Under the pieces are notes generated by a model, which ran no database searches, was not told where the DNA came from, and was given only the letters and a program-made list of their open reading frames with translations. Below are positions 25,204-40,122 of a stretch of 64,000 nt of DNA, in pieces; within the stretch, counting starts at the first letter, position 1, and each line of letters begins with the position of its first letter. The stretch comes from the human T2T-CHM13v2.0 reference genome, Homo sapiens. The DNA is taken from NCBI RefSeq assembly GCF_009914755.1, contig NC_060929.1. One strand, written 5' to 3'. A program made the position numbers and the translations under genes.

Positions 25204-25368
25204 CTTGCTGCACGGAGCAATCCAATAGGCTATGGCGAGAAAAGGGAGGCCTATGGAGACTCCAAAGACAGCCAGGAATTTCACAGCGATAGACTGTTGA
25301 CGTAAGCCTGAGAGATTTTCATACCACATGGTAAGCAATTGCTGCTGACAGTTAGGATGAGCAACGAA
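25204..25368 (-). CDS. TRPC7: TRPC7 coding exon (probably exon 4), 165 nt, phase 0-0; pre-S1 elbow region
   Basis: 55 codons [64 protein letters not shown] is a TRPC hallmark. Acceptor tttttacAG at 25370-25369; donor AAG|GTACAG at 25203-25202. Confidence 0.96.
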
Positions 25369-25370
25369 CT

Positions 25371-25408
25371 GTAAAAACAAAACAAAAACAAAAACAAAAC
25401 GCAAACAG
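25371..25408 (-). repeat. (GTTTT/GTTTTT)n simple repeat forming the polypyrimidine tract of the 25368 exon
   Basis: The + strand reads gtaaaaacaaaacaaaaacaaaaacaaaacgcaaacag immediately next to the acceptor. Confidence 0.85.
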
Positions 25409-25749
25409 GAAAATGGCATTGATAGCACTTGAACAGTATACAACCTAGGAGTAGCTGGGGGCTGAAATGCTCCACCTGGGGGGTGGTTGAGGAACCTGCA
25501 GTGGGTGGGGATGAGGCGTAGGAAGGGGGCCTTCTGACTTGGGGATGCTAAGGAACTTTGTGCTGTGGCCAGAGTCCTTGCAAGACTGGCTGAATTCACA
25601 CTTTGCAAACTGGGCCTAGAAAAGTCTAAGGCACAGAAAATGGAAGTCAGCTTTTCGGTACATGCTTGTCTTCAATTCAGGCTGTTCAGCTGATCAAGGG
25701 AGACTTATCTCTGGGCAGAGTTCACTTGGGAAGGAACACAGAGGAATGG

Positions 25750-25915
25750 ATGGAGCATGAATGGGGTTTTGGAGTCAGACATGGGTGTGAATTTTGTTCT
25801 ACCCCCTACTAGTTGGGTGACCTTGGGACAGTTACTTAACCTCTCTGAGCTTTAATATTCTTATCTGCAAAACAGAGCTTATCACATTGTCTTGGAGGAT
25901 TAAATGACATTGTAA
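25750..25915 (+). mobile_element. MIR SINE
   Basis: ttttggagtcagacatgggtgtgaatttt...gtgaccttgggacagttacttaacctctctgagc. Confidence 0.75.
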
Positions 25916-26129
25916 AAAAAAAAAAATCCCCTCTCTTTACCTATGTAGTCTAAGGAAAAATGCTTACAGTGTTTCCAGAGGATGTGTTAAAACTCCTCAA
26001 TATTTTCTCACTGGATCCCAGTGGTGTTGGGCTTGAATCCAGTTTTTTTGTGGCGTGATGGAGCACCACCACACTGGATCCTCCACGGAGTAGCTTCCTT
26101 CTGGGACATCACACACCCTTCTTACCACT

Positions 26130-26600
26130 ACTTCTCTCTCTTGGAACTGTTCTGCCCTAATGCTTAGGTTACAAGACAGACCTCTTGTGGCCATTTTCTA
26201 TTGTGTGGCCATGTCCTGCCCTCACCCGTGGATTCAGCTTATTGGACTAGGAGTGGAACCCTGACCTAAACTGGGCCTATCAGGTTTTCTTTCCTGCGTG
26301 TTTAGGACTATGTTGAGAGAGGCAGTCTATTTATTTAGTAGAGAGTTAATATGTAACCTTGGACAATCTGGGTAGCTATCTTCCACTTTATGGACTAAGT
26401 AGCAAAACAAGTCTGTTGAAAGCAGAAAGAGAATGGTGTGCAGAAAGAGGCTGAGCTAGTGTTTGACCTCTTTAGGGCCCAGCTCCACTCTACCCATGTG
26501 GTCCATGAGACACTTTTATATTCATAAACAAAATGTTTTGTTTTTTGCTTGATCCAGCATATTGGCTTTAGTTGTTGCTACCAGAACATCCCTTTTCTGC
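26130..26600 (+). mobile_element. Probable old MaLR (MLT1-type) solo LTR
   Basis: ctgacctaaactgggcctatcagg and a 3'-end-like ttttttgcttgatccagc...ttgttgctaccagaacatcc. Highly diverged. Confidence 0.4.
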
Positions 26601-36339: not shown

Positions 36340-36670
36340 CTTTTGATAGTCTAGTTCTTGCCTCAGTGCCCCTCCACAGTATTCCTGAAATGCACCAAGG
36401 CCTTCCTTGACAACCCTGCCCAAAGTAGAAAGCTTCCTTGTGTCCCCTACTCAGTTCCTCCTGTCCTCTAACCCTGCTTTCTTATATCACTTGGCAACCA
36501 CTAGAGTTTATTAAGCATTTATTATCTGTCTCTGTACTAGAACATAAGCTTTATAAGATCAAGGACTTTTTATTTTTGCCTCACTGCACCTGTAGTACTT
36601 GGAACAGTGTCCAGTACATAGTATAATTTCAAGAAATACTTATCGAATGCGCGAATTTATAAATGAATCC
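36340..36670 (+). mobile_element. L2 3' end
   Basis: ctagaacataagctttataagatcaaggac...gaacagtgtccagtacatagta...aaatacttatcgaatg...aaatgaat. Confidence 0.68.
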
Positions 36671-36739
36671 ACAAGTCATCTCTTTGATTCCACAGCGTAC
36701 CCCCACAAGTAGGAACTCTCACTCCTCTCTCCTCCTGAG

Positions 36740-37258
36740 GTAAACGGCATTTCCAAAGATGGTGACAATAATATGTCCCATCCCACATGCTCTGGAATCA
36801 GACCTTGACAATCCTCCATCAAATGGTGGGTCTAAATCGCTGTGGTGGAAGCTGGGATAACTCTCAATGACTTACTTTGATGAGGATGCTGCGACACTTT
36901 CCAAGACTGAGCCTTAGACATCTTCAGTATCTCCTGAGAAAGTTACCTCTTAGAAGGCAGCTGCCATACTATAGTCCAGCTTCCCTGAGACCCCCATGCT
37001 GTGAGGAAGCTCAAAATATCCACGTGCAGGGAGAGAGACCAAATAAAAGAGCATTGAGGTGCCTGCCATGTGGGTATAGCCTTCTGATGTCTTCCATCTC
37101 AGCCAAACCACCAACTGAATGTAGCTGAACAAATGATGTTAGCATAAGAACATCCCAGCTGAATCCTGCCTGATTTCCTGACCTACAGAATTGTGAGTAA
37201 TTAAAATGATTGATTCTTTTCCAAACCACCAAGTTTTATGCACCAAAAGATAAGTCGA
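36740..37258 (+). mobile_element. MLT1 (G/H-like) MaLR solo LTR
   Basis: aaagatggtgacaataatatgtcccatccc...ccatgctgtgaggaagctcaa...ccagctgaatcctgcctgatttcctgacctacagaattgtgag. Confidence 0.7.
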
Positions 37259-38509
37259 ACACTGCCCATCAGTTTCTAGTTATCAGCACTCCACATTGTC
37301 TCCTTCTCCATGGGACTGTGGGGCAAGAACTCCTTCCTCGGTCTTCATCTCCTCTCTGCCTTGACATTCATCCTCTGCTCCTCTCCCTTCTCAGAGGTAG
37401 AAGCATCTCACAAACAACAGCTACACCTACCTGTGTTGTTAGCTGCACTTACCTATGGCCTCATGACCATCTGAAATCTGGCTCTTAAACTCTGCTGAAA
37501 TTACTGTCTCAAAATCTTGTTAATTTCCTTCTGGTTGTCAGACACACAAATCTGTTCTGTGTCTTCCTTCCCTTTGACAGCACTGTAGTCCAGATGCCGC
37601 CTACCGCTCCCTAAGCCATGAACGCTCGCCTCGCTGGACCCCATCTGTATGTCTGGGTGTCTGAATAACCTTCCTGGGAGATGAGCCTGTCTTGTTTTCT
37701 TGCCTGAATATTCATCATAGAAGAATGAGTGACGTTTTCCCTTCCACCTCTTTAGGAGGTGGCCAGGAGAGCTCTGTGTTCTGGTGGTCATAGGTGAGGA
37801 AGAAGTTAATAGTTTCTTGAGGTTTTTAGGAATGGTTCTGAATATCACATGCAGGCTTTCTGGGGGGATTAGGGCTTGGTGAAGAGGAGTCCTTGGTGTT
37901 GGAGAGATGTTTCCTGAGACCAGGAAAGGGGAGTGGGGTTTGAATGTCTTCCGTGGGGTGGCAGACATAAGTTCCAGTTGAACTCCCTGCCTTGGAGGTA
38001 GATGGACCCCCAAATGCAGATCATTCCATTGCAGTACTGAGAGGATTGATCAAATGACAAGGGTCTTCTTTGTGGAAATCCTGAAGAGGGCCCTAGCACC
38101 AGCCTGGCTCAGGGGTCTTGCTTCATTTGAAGCTCCAGGAGGAACGGGTTAATTCTCTTTTGTTTTTCTGTTTTATTCCCAGCACCTGCTATAGTGTCAG
38201 GGACAGAGTGGATGCTCAAAAAAAAAAAAAAAAAAAAAAAAACCCAGAAAAAAAAAACCTCTGTTGAATGAATAAGATGGAGCCACAGCTTAGGACAGAT
38301 TGCGGTGATCAGCACTTGTTAGTGGCATCAGGTATCCATAGGAGAAGGGCATAGACCAAGAGCCCTCCTTTAGGTACACAAGTGAGTCTTCAGGGCCGTG
38401 GTACAACACAGAAAAAGGTGCCCCCAGAATAACTGAGACCAAAGTTCCTTCCAATCTGGGCAGGAGACACTGAGCCAGACTTCATATAGTTCAGAAAAAT
38501 TTTTAAATG

Positions 38510-38730
38510 CTAAGAGCCAACATTTATTGGATATGATGTGCCAGACATTGTTCTAAATGATTTTCATGTATTGATCAATTTAATCCTTGCAACAATTCCA
38601 TCATTAGCACAATCACTAGATTTTTTTTTTACAAAGGAAGAAACTGAGGCAGAGGGCTAAGTAACCCATCTGAGGTCACACAGCCAGGATGTGAACCCAG
38701 ACACGCCTACTTCAGAGCTTGAACTACACC
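38510..38730 (-). mobile_element. MIR SINE
   Basis: aacatttattg...tgtgccagacattgttctaa...gaaactgaggcagag...gaggtcacacagccaggatgtgaacccag. Confidence 0.75.
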
Positions 38731-39795
38731 AAGCAGCAGTTAATATGTGAGATATCTTACCAGCAAGAGGCACAAAGCAAATTCATACTGTTTATGCCTG
38801 TTTCTCCAGTCATTACACATTTAATGCTGTATATACACATGTATATAGATTATACATAACATTTTAATACTATAATAAAATATTAATTTTGACAGAACAG
38901 GTTAAGGTTAGAAGTAGAGATTTTTTTTTTTTCTAGTAATAGAGTGTAACAACATGGAGTGGGCTGTGCCTTGTCTGCCACCGAGATGATACACACCTGG
39001 TCCCCTAACTAGTGCCGGCTATGGAGCAGAATAATTCCTGGAAGAATTTGTCCAGTACTTACTATGTACTGGAACTTTATAAGGCAAGTAGTGTTATCCC
39101 CACATTAGAGATGAGGGAAAAGCAAAGTTAAACAATTTGCCCAAGCTGATGATTCTTAACTGCTACTCCACACAGGGCCGTTTGCTCACATCATGCTGAA
39201 AGGTCTGTTTTTAACACACAGCCTTTGCTTGTCTGGGAGGGAGTCAATTAATTCAGGAAGAAATCTTTAACAACCATGTAAGGGACCTTCAGGATATTTG
39301 TGCACCATCTGTAAATATAATAACCAGTTACAATTATGGCAGAACATGACATATATGTATGTGTCCCCTGCCCTCATAACAAAAAGTCAGATTTCTCTGG
39401 GCAGTGGTTTATTATCAGCTAAGGATCTGTAACTGATGCTAATGGATTTGCTTGTTGGAACTTTGTCTTTGTAAACCCTCCCTAATGGGTTTTAATTTCA
39501 CTGAATTTCAGCCTGATGGTTACTGCAAGCAGCTCTTCCAAATTAGCCAACACTTTAACATCTCCTTTTCACCTTTTCTAATAAGGACTTTGAATAAAGG
39601 TCCCAAAATGGGCCCCAAAATGCAGGTCATTCCAGAGTGCTGGGAGGACTGACTGAAGGTCCTTATTAGAAAAACAAGTATTAGGGGGTGGAGCCAAGAT
39701 GGCCGAATAGGAACAGCTCCAGTCTACAGCTCCCAGCATGAGCGACGCAGAAGACGGGTGACTTCTGCATTTCCAACTGAGGTACTGGGTTCATC

Positions 39796-40122
39796 TCACT
39801 GGGGAGTGCCAGACAGTGGGTGCAGTGCACCATGCGTGAGCCGAAGCAGGGCAAGGCATCGCCTCACCTGGGAAGTGCAAGGAGTCAGGGAATTCCCTTT
39901 CCTAGTCAAAGAAAGGGGTGACAGATGGCACCTGGAAAATCGGGTCACTCCCACCCTAATACTGCGCTCTTCCAACGGGCTTAACAAATGGCACACCAGG
40001 AGATTATATCCTGCACATGGCTTGGAGGGTCCTATGCCCACGGAGCCTTGCTCATTGCTAGCACAGCAGTCTGAGATCAAACTGCAAGGTGGAAGTGAGG
40101 CTGGGGGAGGGGCGCCTGCCAT
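39796..40122 (-). CDS. L1 ORF0 (antisense 5'UTR ORF), open, 108 aa; translation unproven
   Basis: MAGAPPPASLPPCSLISDCCASN... is the known ORF0 N-terminus. ATG at 40122-40120 in a strong context (GCAATGG). No stop until 39798-39796. Confidence 0.7.
   Translation of the reverse strand: MAGAPPPASLPPCSLISDCCASNEQGSVGIGPSKPCAGYNLLVCHLLSPLEERSIRVGVTRFSRCHLSPLSLTRKGNSLTPCTSQVRRCLALLRLTHGALHPLSGTPQ

What the first reader, a model, noticed from the sequence alone, without database searches (positions are those of the whole stretch)
25204..40122. Candidate L1 ORF0-TRPC7 in-frame fusion channel driven by the L1 antisense promoter
Seen: the full-length L1 is antisense to TRPC7, so its antisense promoter fires toward the 25368 exon. 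ORF0 starts at ATG 40122 in a strong Kozak context. Exactly 255 nt (85 codons) later there is a near-consensus donor CAG|GTGAGG (last exonic base 39868, GT at 39867-39866), which is phase 0. The next TRPC7 acceptors (25368 and 16967) are also phase 0. Splicing would therefore give MAGAPPP...[16 protein letters not shown]... in frame through all three exons here. Known: L1 antisense promoters make chimeric host transcripts (e.g. L1-MET), and ORF0 can splice to neighbouring exons. Inference: an 85-aa Pro/Cys-rich ORF0 head would replace the ankyrin N-terminus while the transmembrane core is kept, possibly giving a dominant-negative or differently gated TRPC3/6/7 subunit in hypomethylated cells. 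Of the usual ORF0 donors, SD1 is weakened here (CAT|GTGCAG at 40017). SD2 (CAG|GTGCCA at 39932, phase 2) competes and would hit a stop at 25283-25281.
Basis: partly seen in the sequence, partly recalled or inferred. Interest (0 to 1): 0.8.

Follow-up and report, generated by a model that had tools for sequence, protein, structure and literature searches.

The report
Old L1 inside TRPC7; fusion unproven
An old, dead L1 retrotransposon in a TRPC7 intron could on paper splice its small antisense reading frame in frame onto TRPC7 exons, but many other L1 copies share the same layout and no transcript was found in the catalogues I could check.

Summary
The sequence observation is correct. A full-length L1 lies on the + strand at 39684-45815, with target-site duplications, and is antisense to TRPC7. 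Its antisense ORF0 starts at ATG 40122. Exactly 255 nt later there is a CAG|GTGAGG donor (last exonic base 39868). Splicing to 25368 or 16967 keeps the TRPC7 frame open through all three exons in the window.

The layout is not special to this locus:
- The element is an ordinary L1PA4, about 4.4% diverged, with broken ORF1 and ORF2 and a CpG-depleted 5'UTR.
- The ATG, the 106/191/255 spacing and the third donor are inherited family traits. The exact 18-mer around the donor occurs at 318 places in this genome.
- The complete set-up (ATG, open frame, in-phase CAG|GTGAGG) is present in 4 of 19 nearest copies and in 4 of 20 systematically sampled copies.
- The three donors sit in phases 1, 2 and 0, so one of them is in frame with any downstream exon.

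There is no evidence of expression. TRPC7 is absent from the supplements of three L1 papers. One of them screened this very element in brain and glioma and listed no chimera from it. The supplements of a fourth (iPSC) study could not be opened.

Verdict: a generic, unproven potential, not a demonstrated fusion channel. Low interest.

The parts
39684..45815 (+). Full-length but coding-dead L1 element (L1PA4), antisense to TRPC7, with a short A-rich tail
   Evidence: The 5' end reads GGGGGTGGAGCCAAGATGGCCGAATAGG at 39684. The 3' end is ...aataataataataa. Pfam matches in broken ORFs: Tnp_22_trimer and Transposase_22 (41056-41412), Exo_endo_phos (41776-42858) and RVT_1 (43061-43507). The RepeatMasker line in Pinson 2022 Table S1 reads chr5:135624859-135630987 + L1PA4, 44 per mille divergence, consensus positions 1-6153. 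I matched that line to this element by strand, size and my own recalled coordinate offset.
39668..39683 (.). 5' target-site duplication AGAAAAACAAGTATTA
   Evidence: The same 16 bases are seen at 39668-39683 and at 45816-45831.
45816..45831 (.). 3' target-site duplication AGAAAAACAAGTATTA
39684..40696 (+). L1 5'UTR (1013 nt), which holds the sense promoter and, by homology, the antisense promoter. It is CpG-depleted.
   Evidence: The ORF1 start MGKKQSRKTGNSK... is at 40697. There are 22 CpG, observed/expected 0.29. L1 positions 400-600 hold 4 CpG.
39796..40122 (-). ORF0-type antisense ORF: 108 codons plus stop, with the ATG at 40122
   Evidence: No Pfam family matched the first 85 aa.
40255..40257 (-). 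In-frame upstream ATG, 45 codons before the ORF0 ATG. With it the ORF is 153 aa.
40077..40184 (-). Out-of-frame uORF (35 codons plus stop) that overlaps the ORF0 start. Its ATG also has G at -3 and +4.
40011..40019 (-). SD1 position, here CAT|GTGCAG. The G at -1 is lost. It lies 106 nt from the ATG, in phase 1.
   Evidence: matrix score -3.2. CAT|GT is shared by 7 of 19 nearest copies.
39926..39934 (-). SD2, CAG|GTGCCA. It lies 191 nt from the ATG, in phase 2. Spliced to 25368 it stops at 25283-25281.
   Evidence: (matrix score -0.5)
39862..39870 (-). Third donor, CAG|GTGAGG. It lies 255 nt from the ATG, in phase 0. It is the best donor in the antisense 5'UTR by a crude matrix.
   Evidence: 7.4 bits; the real TRPC7 donors in the window score 0.25, 5.5 and 6.2; 318 exact 18-mer copies in the genome
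25204..25368 (-). TRPC7 coding exon (165 nt, phase 0 at both ends). It encodes [10 protein letters not shown]...APCSK, which matches TRPC6 residues 377-431 and TRPC3 320-374. Its acceptor has a long T/G-rich pyrimidine tract.
   Evidence: hub annotation
16751..16967 (-). Next TRPC7 coding exon (217 nt, starts in phase 0)
   Evidence: hub annotation
2180..2413 (-). Third TRPC7 coding exon in the window (234 nt)
   Evidence: hub annotation

Best explanation
This is an ordinary, fixed, retrotransposition-dead L1PA4 element that inserted by target-primed reverse transcription into a TRPC7 intron, opposite in orientation to the gene. Its antisense strand carries the family-typical ORF0 reading frame and the family-typical splice donors. 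In the older L1PA copies ORF0 runs 108 aa or more and passes a third, strong, phase-0 donor. The in-frame join to the phase-0 TRPC7 exons follows arithmetically from inherited L1 features meeting a 1-in-3 phase match. It is not a locus-specific adaptation. Most likely the antisense promoter of this copy is silent or very weak in the tissues surveyed. If it fires, it mostly gives unspliced or non-productive RNA, and no ORF0-TRPC7 protein of physiological importance is made. Shown: the anatomy, the family-wide nature of the features, and the absence from three sets of supplementary tables. Inferred: the silence in tissues that were not surveyed.
For: L1 identity and state:
- Target-site duplications, a 5' end at consensus position 1, an A-rich tail, and Pfam L1 domains in ORFs broken by many stops.
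- L1PA4 with 4.4% divergence in a RepeatMasker-derived table.
- The best non-self 5'UTR matches in the same genome are 91-94% identical over 40 scored places. The first look found 7228 candidates.

Family trait, in the 19 nearest copies:
- ATG present in 19 of 19.
- Spacing of 106 nt and of 191 nt in 18 of 19 each, and of 255 nt in 16 of 19.
- ORF of 85 aa or more in 13 of 19.
- Third donor CAG|GTGAGG in 7, CGG|GTGAGG in 7, TGG|GTGAGG in 3, and a damaged form in 2.
- The identical full set-up in 4 of 19.

Family trait, genome-wide:
- The 30-mer around the donor matches 1989 places at up to 3 mismatches, against 0 for the reversed control.
- The exact 18-mer matches 318 places, control 0.
- In a systematic sample of 20 of those places (every 5th of the first 100 listed), 4 of 20 have the ATG plus an open frame to an in-phase CAG|GTGAGG.
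- The donors are in phases 1, 2 and 0.

No expression evidence:
- 0 occurrences of TRPC7 in the 10 supplementary files of the EST catalogue of 988 genes.
- 0 occurrences in the 3 tables of the brain/glioma study. Its Table S1 lists this element among those screened, and its Table S2 lists chimeras down to one read.
- 0 occurrences in the 9 supplementary files of the locus-level L1 methylation study.
- 0 papers combine TRPC7 with L1 antisense-promoter or L1PA terms.

Base rates: 161 of 8744 young L1s (1.9%) have spliced EST chimeras, and 44 of 1509 L1 chimeric transcripts (2.9%) are spliced at the 5' end.

Obstacles to a productive fusion:
- An out-of-frame uORF overlaps the ORF0 ATG.
- Some transcripts start in the +150 to +250 region of the L1, near or downstream of the ORF0 ATG and the donor.
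- On the minus strand between donor and exon there are 11 acceptor-like sites and 26 AATAAA/ATTAAA hexamers.
Against: - The 39868 donor is strong. By the crude matrix it is stronger than the three genuine TRPC7 donors in the window.
- The 25368 acceptor has a long pyrimidine tract.
- The orientation and frame are right.
- L1PA4 antisense promoters are often active. 17% of L1PA1-7 elements gave chimeras in brain and glioma, and L1PA4 rows are common in the part of Table S2 that I read.
- In iPSCs about 100 L1-derived chimeric transcripts exist, a third of them protein-coding.
- The surveys I could check do not cover early embryo, germ line, most tumours, demethylated or KZFP-depleted cells, or deep junction compendia.
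- I could not see the list of 57 ORF0-exon fusions of Denli 2015 (not held), nor the supplements of the iPSC study (closed).
- A name search for 'TRPC7' would miss a row given only by coordinates.
Confidence: 0.8

Rival explanations
1. In permissive cells (pluripotent or early embryonic cells, tumours, KZFP/KAP1-depleted or demethylated cells) the antisense promoter of this L1PA4 fires upstream of 40122. The 39868 donor splices to the TRPC7 exon at 25368 or 16967. An mRNA results that encodes an 85-aa ORF0 head fused to TRPC7 from the pre-S1 region onward.
For: The frame is open through 290 or 235 codons. The ATG has a strong Kozak context. The third donor is the best donor in the antisense 5'UTR, and the acceptor has a good pyrimidine tract. 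Secondary sources say ORF0-exon fusions exist at 57 loci. L1 antisense promoters serve as alternative promoters of protein-coding genes in iPSCs.
Against: No transcript evidence in any table I could search. Base rates for spliced chimeras are low. A competing uORF overlaps the start. The promoter region is CpG-poor and 4.4% diverged. SD2 and the intronic decoy sites compete. The layout is shared with many other copies, so nothing singles out this one.
Confidence: 0.1
2. The fusion protein is made and acts as a channel subunit, either dominant-negative or regated, in TRPC3/6/7 tetramers.
For: The retained part would start at the equivalent of TRPC6 residue 377 or TRPC3 residue 320. It would therefore keep the pre-S1 segment and everything after it that the window shows. 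This is inference only.
Against: Everything N-terminal of that point is lost. That includes the ankyrin repeats and coiled-coil, the TRPC3 123-221 VAMP-2 site and the TRPC6 Y284 site, which a review links to surface delivery. A role of the N-terminus in assembly is recalled from Lepage 2006, which I did not read here. The ORF0 head matches no protein family. No transcript is known.
Confidence: 0.02
3. The element matters to TRPC7 in another way: as an intronic antisense L1 that breaks or dampens the gene (premature polyadenylation or exonisation on the L1 antisense strand, or a repressive KZFP-bound chromatin patch), without any ORF0 fusion.
For: 'Gene-breaking' by intronic antisense L1s and cryptic splice sites in L1 are described in the literature. 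Nothing specific to this locus supports it.
Against: No RefSeq exon or transcript end is annotated in the L1 (hub table). I did not test it here.
Confidence: 0.05

Closest known systems
L1 ORF0 and ORF0-exon fusion proteins (Denli et al. 2015, Cell 163:583; not held here, known to me through passages in PMC4908685, PMC4859970 and PMC13517631)
   Same: An antisense ORF in the primate L1 5'UTR, downstream of the antisense promoter. It has an ATG in a strong context and internal splice donors that can join it to host exons. L1HS and L1PA2-8 are said to carry it.
   Different: Canonical ORF0 is 70-71 aa with two donors. Here the frame is 108 aa. SD1 has lost its G at -1. The proposed join uses a third donor 255 nt from the ATG. 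One younger-looking copy (L033) has a 71-aa ORF0 and a 1-nt shorter SD2-SD3 interval, so its frame stops before this donor. No transcript or protein is shown for this locus.
L1 antisense-promoter chimeric transcripts (LCTs), such as L1-MET (recalled) and the alternative isoforms of ELAPOR2 and PPP1R1C in iPSCs (PMC12791003, passages)
   Same: A young-to-middle-aged full-length L1 lies in an intron, opposite to the gene. Its antisense promoter would give a transcript that lacks the upstream exons.
   Different: Those cases rest on ESTs, RNA-seq, CRISPRi or RT-PCR. This locus has none, and it is absent from the tables searched.
Gene-breaking by intronic antisense L1 (Wheelan et al. 2005; cited in PMC4859970, passage only)
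   Same: The same geometry: an antisense L1 in an intron that could split a gene into an upstream and a downstream transcript.
   Different: No evidence here for either half-transcript.
TRPC3/6/7 channel subunits (solved structures 5yx9, 6uz8, 6cud, 5zbg and others)
   Same: The exon at 25204-25368 aligns end to end with TRPC6 377-431 and TRPC3 320-374 at E about 1e-25.
   Different: The hypothetical fusion would lack the whole N-terminal cytosolic part before that point. A natural or engineered channel that begins at this point is not known to me (recall); I ran no search for one.

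Membership tests
LINE-1, subfamily L1PA4 (full-length insertion) | Target-site duplication flanking the element, and an A-rich 3' tail | tested here: met
   A 16-nt duplication at 39668-39683 and 45816-45831. The tail reads aataataataataa.
LINE-1, subfamily L1PA4 (full-length insertion) | 5'UTR, ORF1 and ORF2 (endonuclease and reverse transcriptase) in that order | tested here: met
   ORF1 starts at 40697. Transposase_22 and Tnp_22_trimer, Exo_endo_phos and RVT_1 follow in order. All are interrupted by stops, so the element is not coding-competent.
LINE-1, subfamily L1PA4 (full-length insertion) | Subfamily assignment against the consensus library | tested here: inconclusive
   No repeat library is available here. 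A published RepeatMasker-derived table lists chr5:135624859-135630987 + as L1PA4, 4.4% diverged, consensus positions 1-6153. I equated it with this element by strand, length (6128 against 6132) and a coordinate offset that I recalled. The 91-94% identity to the nearest copies fits that age.
L1 ORF0 (Denli 2015) | An antisense ATG-initiated ORF in the 5'UTR with a strong Kozak context | tested here: met
   gcaATGg at 40122. The homologous ATG is present in 19 of 19 nearest copies.
L1 ORF0 (Denli 2015) | Length of 70-71 aa with two internal splice donors | tested here: not met
   The ORF here is 108 aa. SD1 is CAT|GT and SD2 is intact, and a third donor lies inside the longer frame. So this is an older-type, longer variant of ORF0, not the canonical form.
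L1 ORF0 (Denli 2015) | Transcribed from the antisense promoter and translated | not testable with these tools
   No RNA, CAGE, Ribo-seq or proteomic data are available here.
L1 antisense-promoter chimeric transcript (LCT) of a host gene | An L1 5'UTR opposite in orientation to the gene and upstream of gene exons | tested here: met
   The L1 is on +, TRPC7 is on -, and the exons at 25368, 16967 and 2413 lie downstream on the minus strand (hub table).
L1 antisense-promoter chimeric transcript (LCT) of a host gene | Observed RNA that starts in the L1 5'UTR antisense strand and continues or splices into host sequence | tested here: not met
   Not found in the EST catalogue supplements, the brain/glioma tables or the methylation/LCT study supplements. 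These are limited surveys. Junction compendia could not be queried.
TRPC3/6/7 channel subunit (for the hypothetical fusion) | N-terminal ankyrin-repeat and linker-helix domain together with the S1-S6 core and the C-terminal helices | tested here: not met
   The fusion would begin at the equivalent of TRPC6 residue 377, so the N-terminal domain would be missing. The exons after 2180 lie outside the window and were not examined.

The most novel reading that the evidence does not exclude
Older L1PA elements, here an L1PA4, carry a longer ORF0 (108 aa or more) with three antisense donors in phases 1, 2 and 0. Such an element could act as a portable first coding exon able to fuse in frame with any downstream host exon. 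At this locus, in some permissive state, it would yield an ape-specific ORF0-TRPC7 isoform. That isoform would lack the ankyrin and linker domain and would modulate TRPC3/6/7 tetramers.
Probability: 0.03. Interest if true: 0.6.

Novelty: new member of a known kind. Interest (0 to 1): 0.15.

Why it matters
If the fusion were real, it would be one more ape-specific, L1-promoted N-terminally truncated isoform of a conserved ion-channel gene, and a test case for whether ORF0 fusions make working proteins. As things stand, the use of this check is to show that such 'in-frame ORF0 fusion' candidates can be generated from sequence alone at very many L1PA copies. They should therefore not be ranked highly without junction or 5'-end evidence. 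The by-product may help anyone who screens ORF0 fusions systematically: older copies keep a longer ORF0 that reaches a third, strong, phase-0 donor, while a canonical-type copy stops before it.

Tried and rejected
- Primary papers not held. Denli 2015, Speek 2001 and Matlik 2006 could not be read. The published positions of the ORF0 donors and the list of 57 ORF0 fusions were therefore not seen. Whether the 39868-type donor is already described as a used L1 antisense donor remains open.
Only its main text was searched, and TRPC7 does not occur in it.
- One search was sent with a badly formed term and was resent corrected.
- No MaxEntScan or SpliceAI is available. I used a 9-position donor matrix with frequencies recalled from memory, and a simple pyrimidine-tract filter for acceptors. 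These give rankings only.
- A repeat-library classification was not possible. The subfamily name comes from a published table.
- I considered folding the fusion or testing its assembly with TRPC subunits. I did not do it: the remaining TRPC7 exons lie outside the window, it would need a joined sequence, and it would not address the open question, which is whether the RNA exists.
- I considered whether CAG at the donor is a private CpG-decay gain of this copy. The 19 nearest copies split CAG 7, CGG 7, TGG 3 and damaged 2, but the exact CAG context is present 318 times genome-wide. It is not private, and I left the ancestral state undecided.

Full report
**What is in the sequence.** The finding spans a full-length L1 and the next TRPC7 exon downstream of it on the minus strand. 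The L1 lies on the + strand from 39684 (GGGGGTGGAGCCAAGATGGCCGAATAGG...) to about 45815 and ends in a short A-rich tail. A perfect 16-nt target-site duplication, AGAAAAACAAGTATTA, flanks it at 39668-39683 and 45816-45831. ORF1 begins at 40697 (MGKKQSRKTGNSK...), so the 5'UTR is 1013 nt. ORF1 is interrupted after 76 codons and many times more, and ORF2 survives only as pieces. Pfam finds the L1 trimerisation and RNA-binding domains, the endonuclease and a reverse-transcriptase fragment in the expected order. The element is therefore a complete but coding-dead insertion.

**Subfamily and age.** A RepeatMasker-derived table in Pinson et al. 2022 (PMC9396940, Table S1) lists chr5:135624859-135630987, + strand, L1PA4, 44 per mille divergence, consensus positions 1-6153. 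I equate this line with the element here by strand, by length (6128 against 6132 nt), and by a hg19 offset that I estimated from memory. The estimate fell within about 20 nt. The equation is probable but not formally proven. In the same genome the best other 5'UTR copies are 91-94% identical (40 scored of 7228 first-look candidates), which fits an element of that age. The 5'UTR keeps 22 CpGs in 1013 nt (observed/expected 0.29). The stretch homologous to the antisense promoter (L1 positions 400-600) keeps 4.

Every coordinate statement checks out.
- The ATG at 40122 sits in the context gcaATGg.
- The frame reads MAGAPPPASLPPCSLISDCC...GNSLTPCTSQ for 85 codons up to base 39868, where CAG|GTGAGG follows. 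Unspliced, the frame continues to 108 aa.
- SD1 is CAT|GTGCAG (last exonic base 40017; 106 nt from the ATG). SD2 is CAG|GTGCCA (39932; 191 nt).
- Exon 25204-25368 is 165 nt and exon 16751-16967 is 217 nt.
- I joined the parts by coordinates in a script. From 39868 the frame stays open for 290 codons via 25368, or for 235 codons via 16967. From 40017 it stops at codon 41.

An in-frame ATG 45 codons upstream (40257) lengthens the ORF to 153 aa. An out-of-frame ATG at 40184, also with G at -3 and +4, opens a 35-codon uORF that overlaps the ORF0 start. The uORF would compete for scanning ribosomes on any transcript that starts upstream of it.

**Is it more than chance, and is it special to this locus?** No to both. 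I aligned the antisense 5'UTR of the 19 best-matching other copies to this one.
- All 19 have the ATG.
- The distance from the ATG to SD1 is 106 nt in 18 of 19, to SD2 191 nt in 18 of 19, and to the third donor 255 nt in 16 of 19.
- 13 of 19 have an ORF of at least 85 aa.
- The third donor reads CAG|GTGAGG in 7, CGG|GTGAGG in 7, TGG|GTGAGG in 3, and is damaged in 2.
- The complete configuration (ATG, open frame, in-phase CAG|GTGAGG) is present in 4 of 19.

Genome-wide, the 30-mer around the donor matches 1989 places at up to 3 mismatches (reversed-pattern control 0). The exact 18-mer that includes CAG|GTGAGG matches 318 places (control 0). Both counts include the window's own copy. From the first 100 listed exact matches I took every fifth (20 places on contigs 1-4). 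Four of these 20 align only in part and belong to more distant L1 5'UTRs. 14 of 20 have the ATG. 4 of 20 have the complete configuration. So roughly a fifth of the copies in two differently chosen samples look like this one.

The three donors also lie in phases 1, 2 and 0. For any downstream acceptor one of them gives an in-frame join. The match of the third donor with a phase-0 exon is a 1-in-3 event.

**A by-product.** One copy in the systematic sample (L033) has a 71-aa ORF0, and its interval between SD2 and the third donor is one nucleotide shorter (254). Its frame therefore stops before the third donor. That matches the canonical ORF0 of 70-71 aa with two donors, as described in passages of PMC4908685 and PMC4859970. 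The longer ORF0 that reaches a third donor thus appears to be a property of the older copies. I could not check whether the primary paper describes this, because it is not held.

**Splice-site quality.** I scored the donors with a nine-position matrix whose frequencies I recalled from memory. It is not MaxEntScan and is useful only for ranking. The 39868 donor scores 7.4 bits and is the best GT in the antisense 5'UTR. SD2 scores -0.5 and SD1 -3.2. The three genuine TRPC7 donors in the window score 0.25, 5.5 and 6.2. The 25368 acceptor has a long T/G-rich pyrimidine tract. Between the donor and the exon lie 14.5 kb. On the minus strand this stretch holds 11 acceptor-like sites by a simple filter, 15 AATAAA and 11 ATTAAA. 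These are possible decoys, though none is annotated as used.

**Evidence on expression.** I have no RNA data, so I used published catalogues.
- Criscione et al. 2016 (PMC4908685; passages and a supplement search) list 988 genes with spliced ESTs that start in an antisense L1. TRPC7 does not occur in the 10 supplementary files.
- Pinson et al. 2022 (passages, section 5, Tables S1-S3) screened 9123 L1PA1-8 elements that have a 5'UTR, in 3 normal brains and 8 gliomas. This element is on their list. Neither TRPC7 nor any coordinate within about 500 nt of its 5' end appears in the chimera table, which includes chimeras supported by a single read.
- Lanciano et al. 2024 (PMC10879037; supplement search only): 0 occurrences of TRPC7 in 9 files.
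- Adami et al. 2025 (PMC12791003; passages of the main text): about 100 L1-derived chimeric transcripts in iPSCs, and TRPC7 is not mentioned.
- Three full-text searches that combined TRPC7 with L1 antisense-promoter, L1PA, or chimeric-transcript and transposable-element terms found no paper.

The base rates from Pinson et al. are low.
- 1509 of 8744 L1PA1-7 elements (17%) gave chimeras.
- Only 44 of those 1509 (2.9%) were spliced at the 5' end.
- Only 161 of 8744 (1.9%) had spliced EST chimeras in earlier work.
- Part of the initiation occurs at L1 +150 to +250. That is near or downstream of the ORF0 ATG (L1 position about 439 here) and of the third donor (about 185).

**What the protein would be.** The exon at 25204-25368 aligns end to end with TRPC6 residues 377-431 and TRPC3 residues 320-374 in solved structures (E about 1e-25). 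A fusion would replace everything before that point with the 85-aa ORF0 head, which is rich in proline and cysteine and matches no Pfam family. A review (PMC11300232, passages) places several elements in the part that would be lost: the ankyrin repeats and a coiled-coil, the VAMP-2 site of TRPC3 (residues 123-221), and the Y284 site needed for TRPC6 surface expression. That the N-terminus is needed for assembly is my recollection of Lepage 2006, which I did not read here. A working or dominant-negative channel is therefore an untested guess on top of an unobserved RNA.

**Verdict.**
- Most likely (about 0.8), this is an ordinary fixed L1PA4 whose inherited antisense ORF0 and donors happen to be in phase with TRPC7, and no meaningful fusion product is made.
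I put this at about 0.1, and higher for stray junction reads in very large compendia.
- A functional fusion subunit has a probability of about 0.02.
- If the transcript exists, it would be a new member of a known kind: L1 antisense-promoter chimeras and ORF0 fusions.

The decisive tests are junction and 5'-end look-ups, which I could not run. The relevant T2T-CHM13 chr5 positions are 136,811,868 (donor), 136,797,368 and 136,788,967 (acceptors), and about 136,812,100-136,812,300 (expected antisense starts).

Noticed in passing
window 40011-40019, 39926-39934, 39862-39870 (minus strand); loci L002-L020: The three antisense donors of this L1 5'UTR type lie 106, 191 and 255 nt after the ORF0 ATG, which puts them in phases 1, 2 and 0. 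One of them is therefore in frame with any downstream exon. The spacing is kept in 16 to 18 of the 19 nearest copies.
   Followed up: partly
L033 (G000:C3:114282343-114283360): This copy has a 71-aa ORF0 and a 1-nt shorter SD2 to third-donor interval (254 nt), so its frame stops before the third donor. It looks like the canonical young-L1 ORF0. The longer 108-aa form seen in the window is the older type.
   Followed up: partly
window 40077-40184 (minus strand): An out-of-frame 35-codon uORF, with G at -3 and +4 of its ATG, overlaps the ORF0 start codon. It would lower ORF0 translation on transcripts that start upstream of it.
   Followed up: partly
window 40255-40257 (minus strand): An in-frame ATG lies 45 codons upstream of the ORF0 ATG, and the frame stays open at least to 40350. 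Transcripts that start far upstream could encode a 130-aa head instead of 85 aa.
   Followed up: no
window 25369-25400 (minus strand): The pyrimidine tract of the 25368 acceptor is a (GTTTT/GTTTTT)n-like simple repeat (gttttgtttttgtttttgttttgtttttacag). Length variation there could affect inclusion of this 165-nt, frame-neutral exon.
   Followed up: no
window 54267-54368 (+ strand): According to the hub table, the only TRPC7-AS2 exon in the window lies inside a repeat-masked stretch (54117-54410), so that lncRNA exon is probably repeat-derived. I did not examine it.
   Followed up: no
loci L002-L020, position homologous to window 39870-39868: At the third donor the nearest copies split into CAG (7), CGG (7 plus one with a broken GT) and TGG (4, one of them with a further change). 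This pattern suggests CpG decay at a CGG site, which can either improve (CAG) or weaken (TGG) the donor in individual copies.
   Followed up: partly
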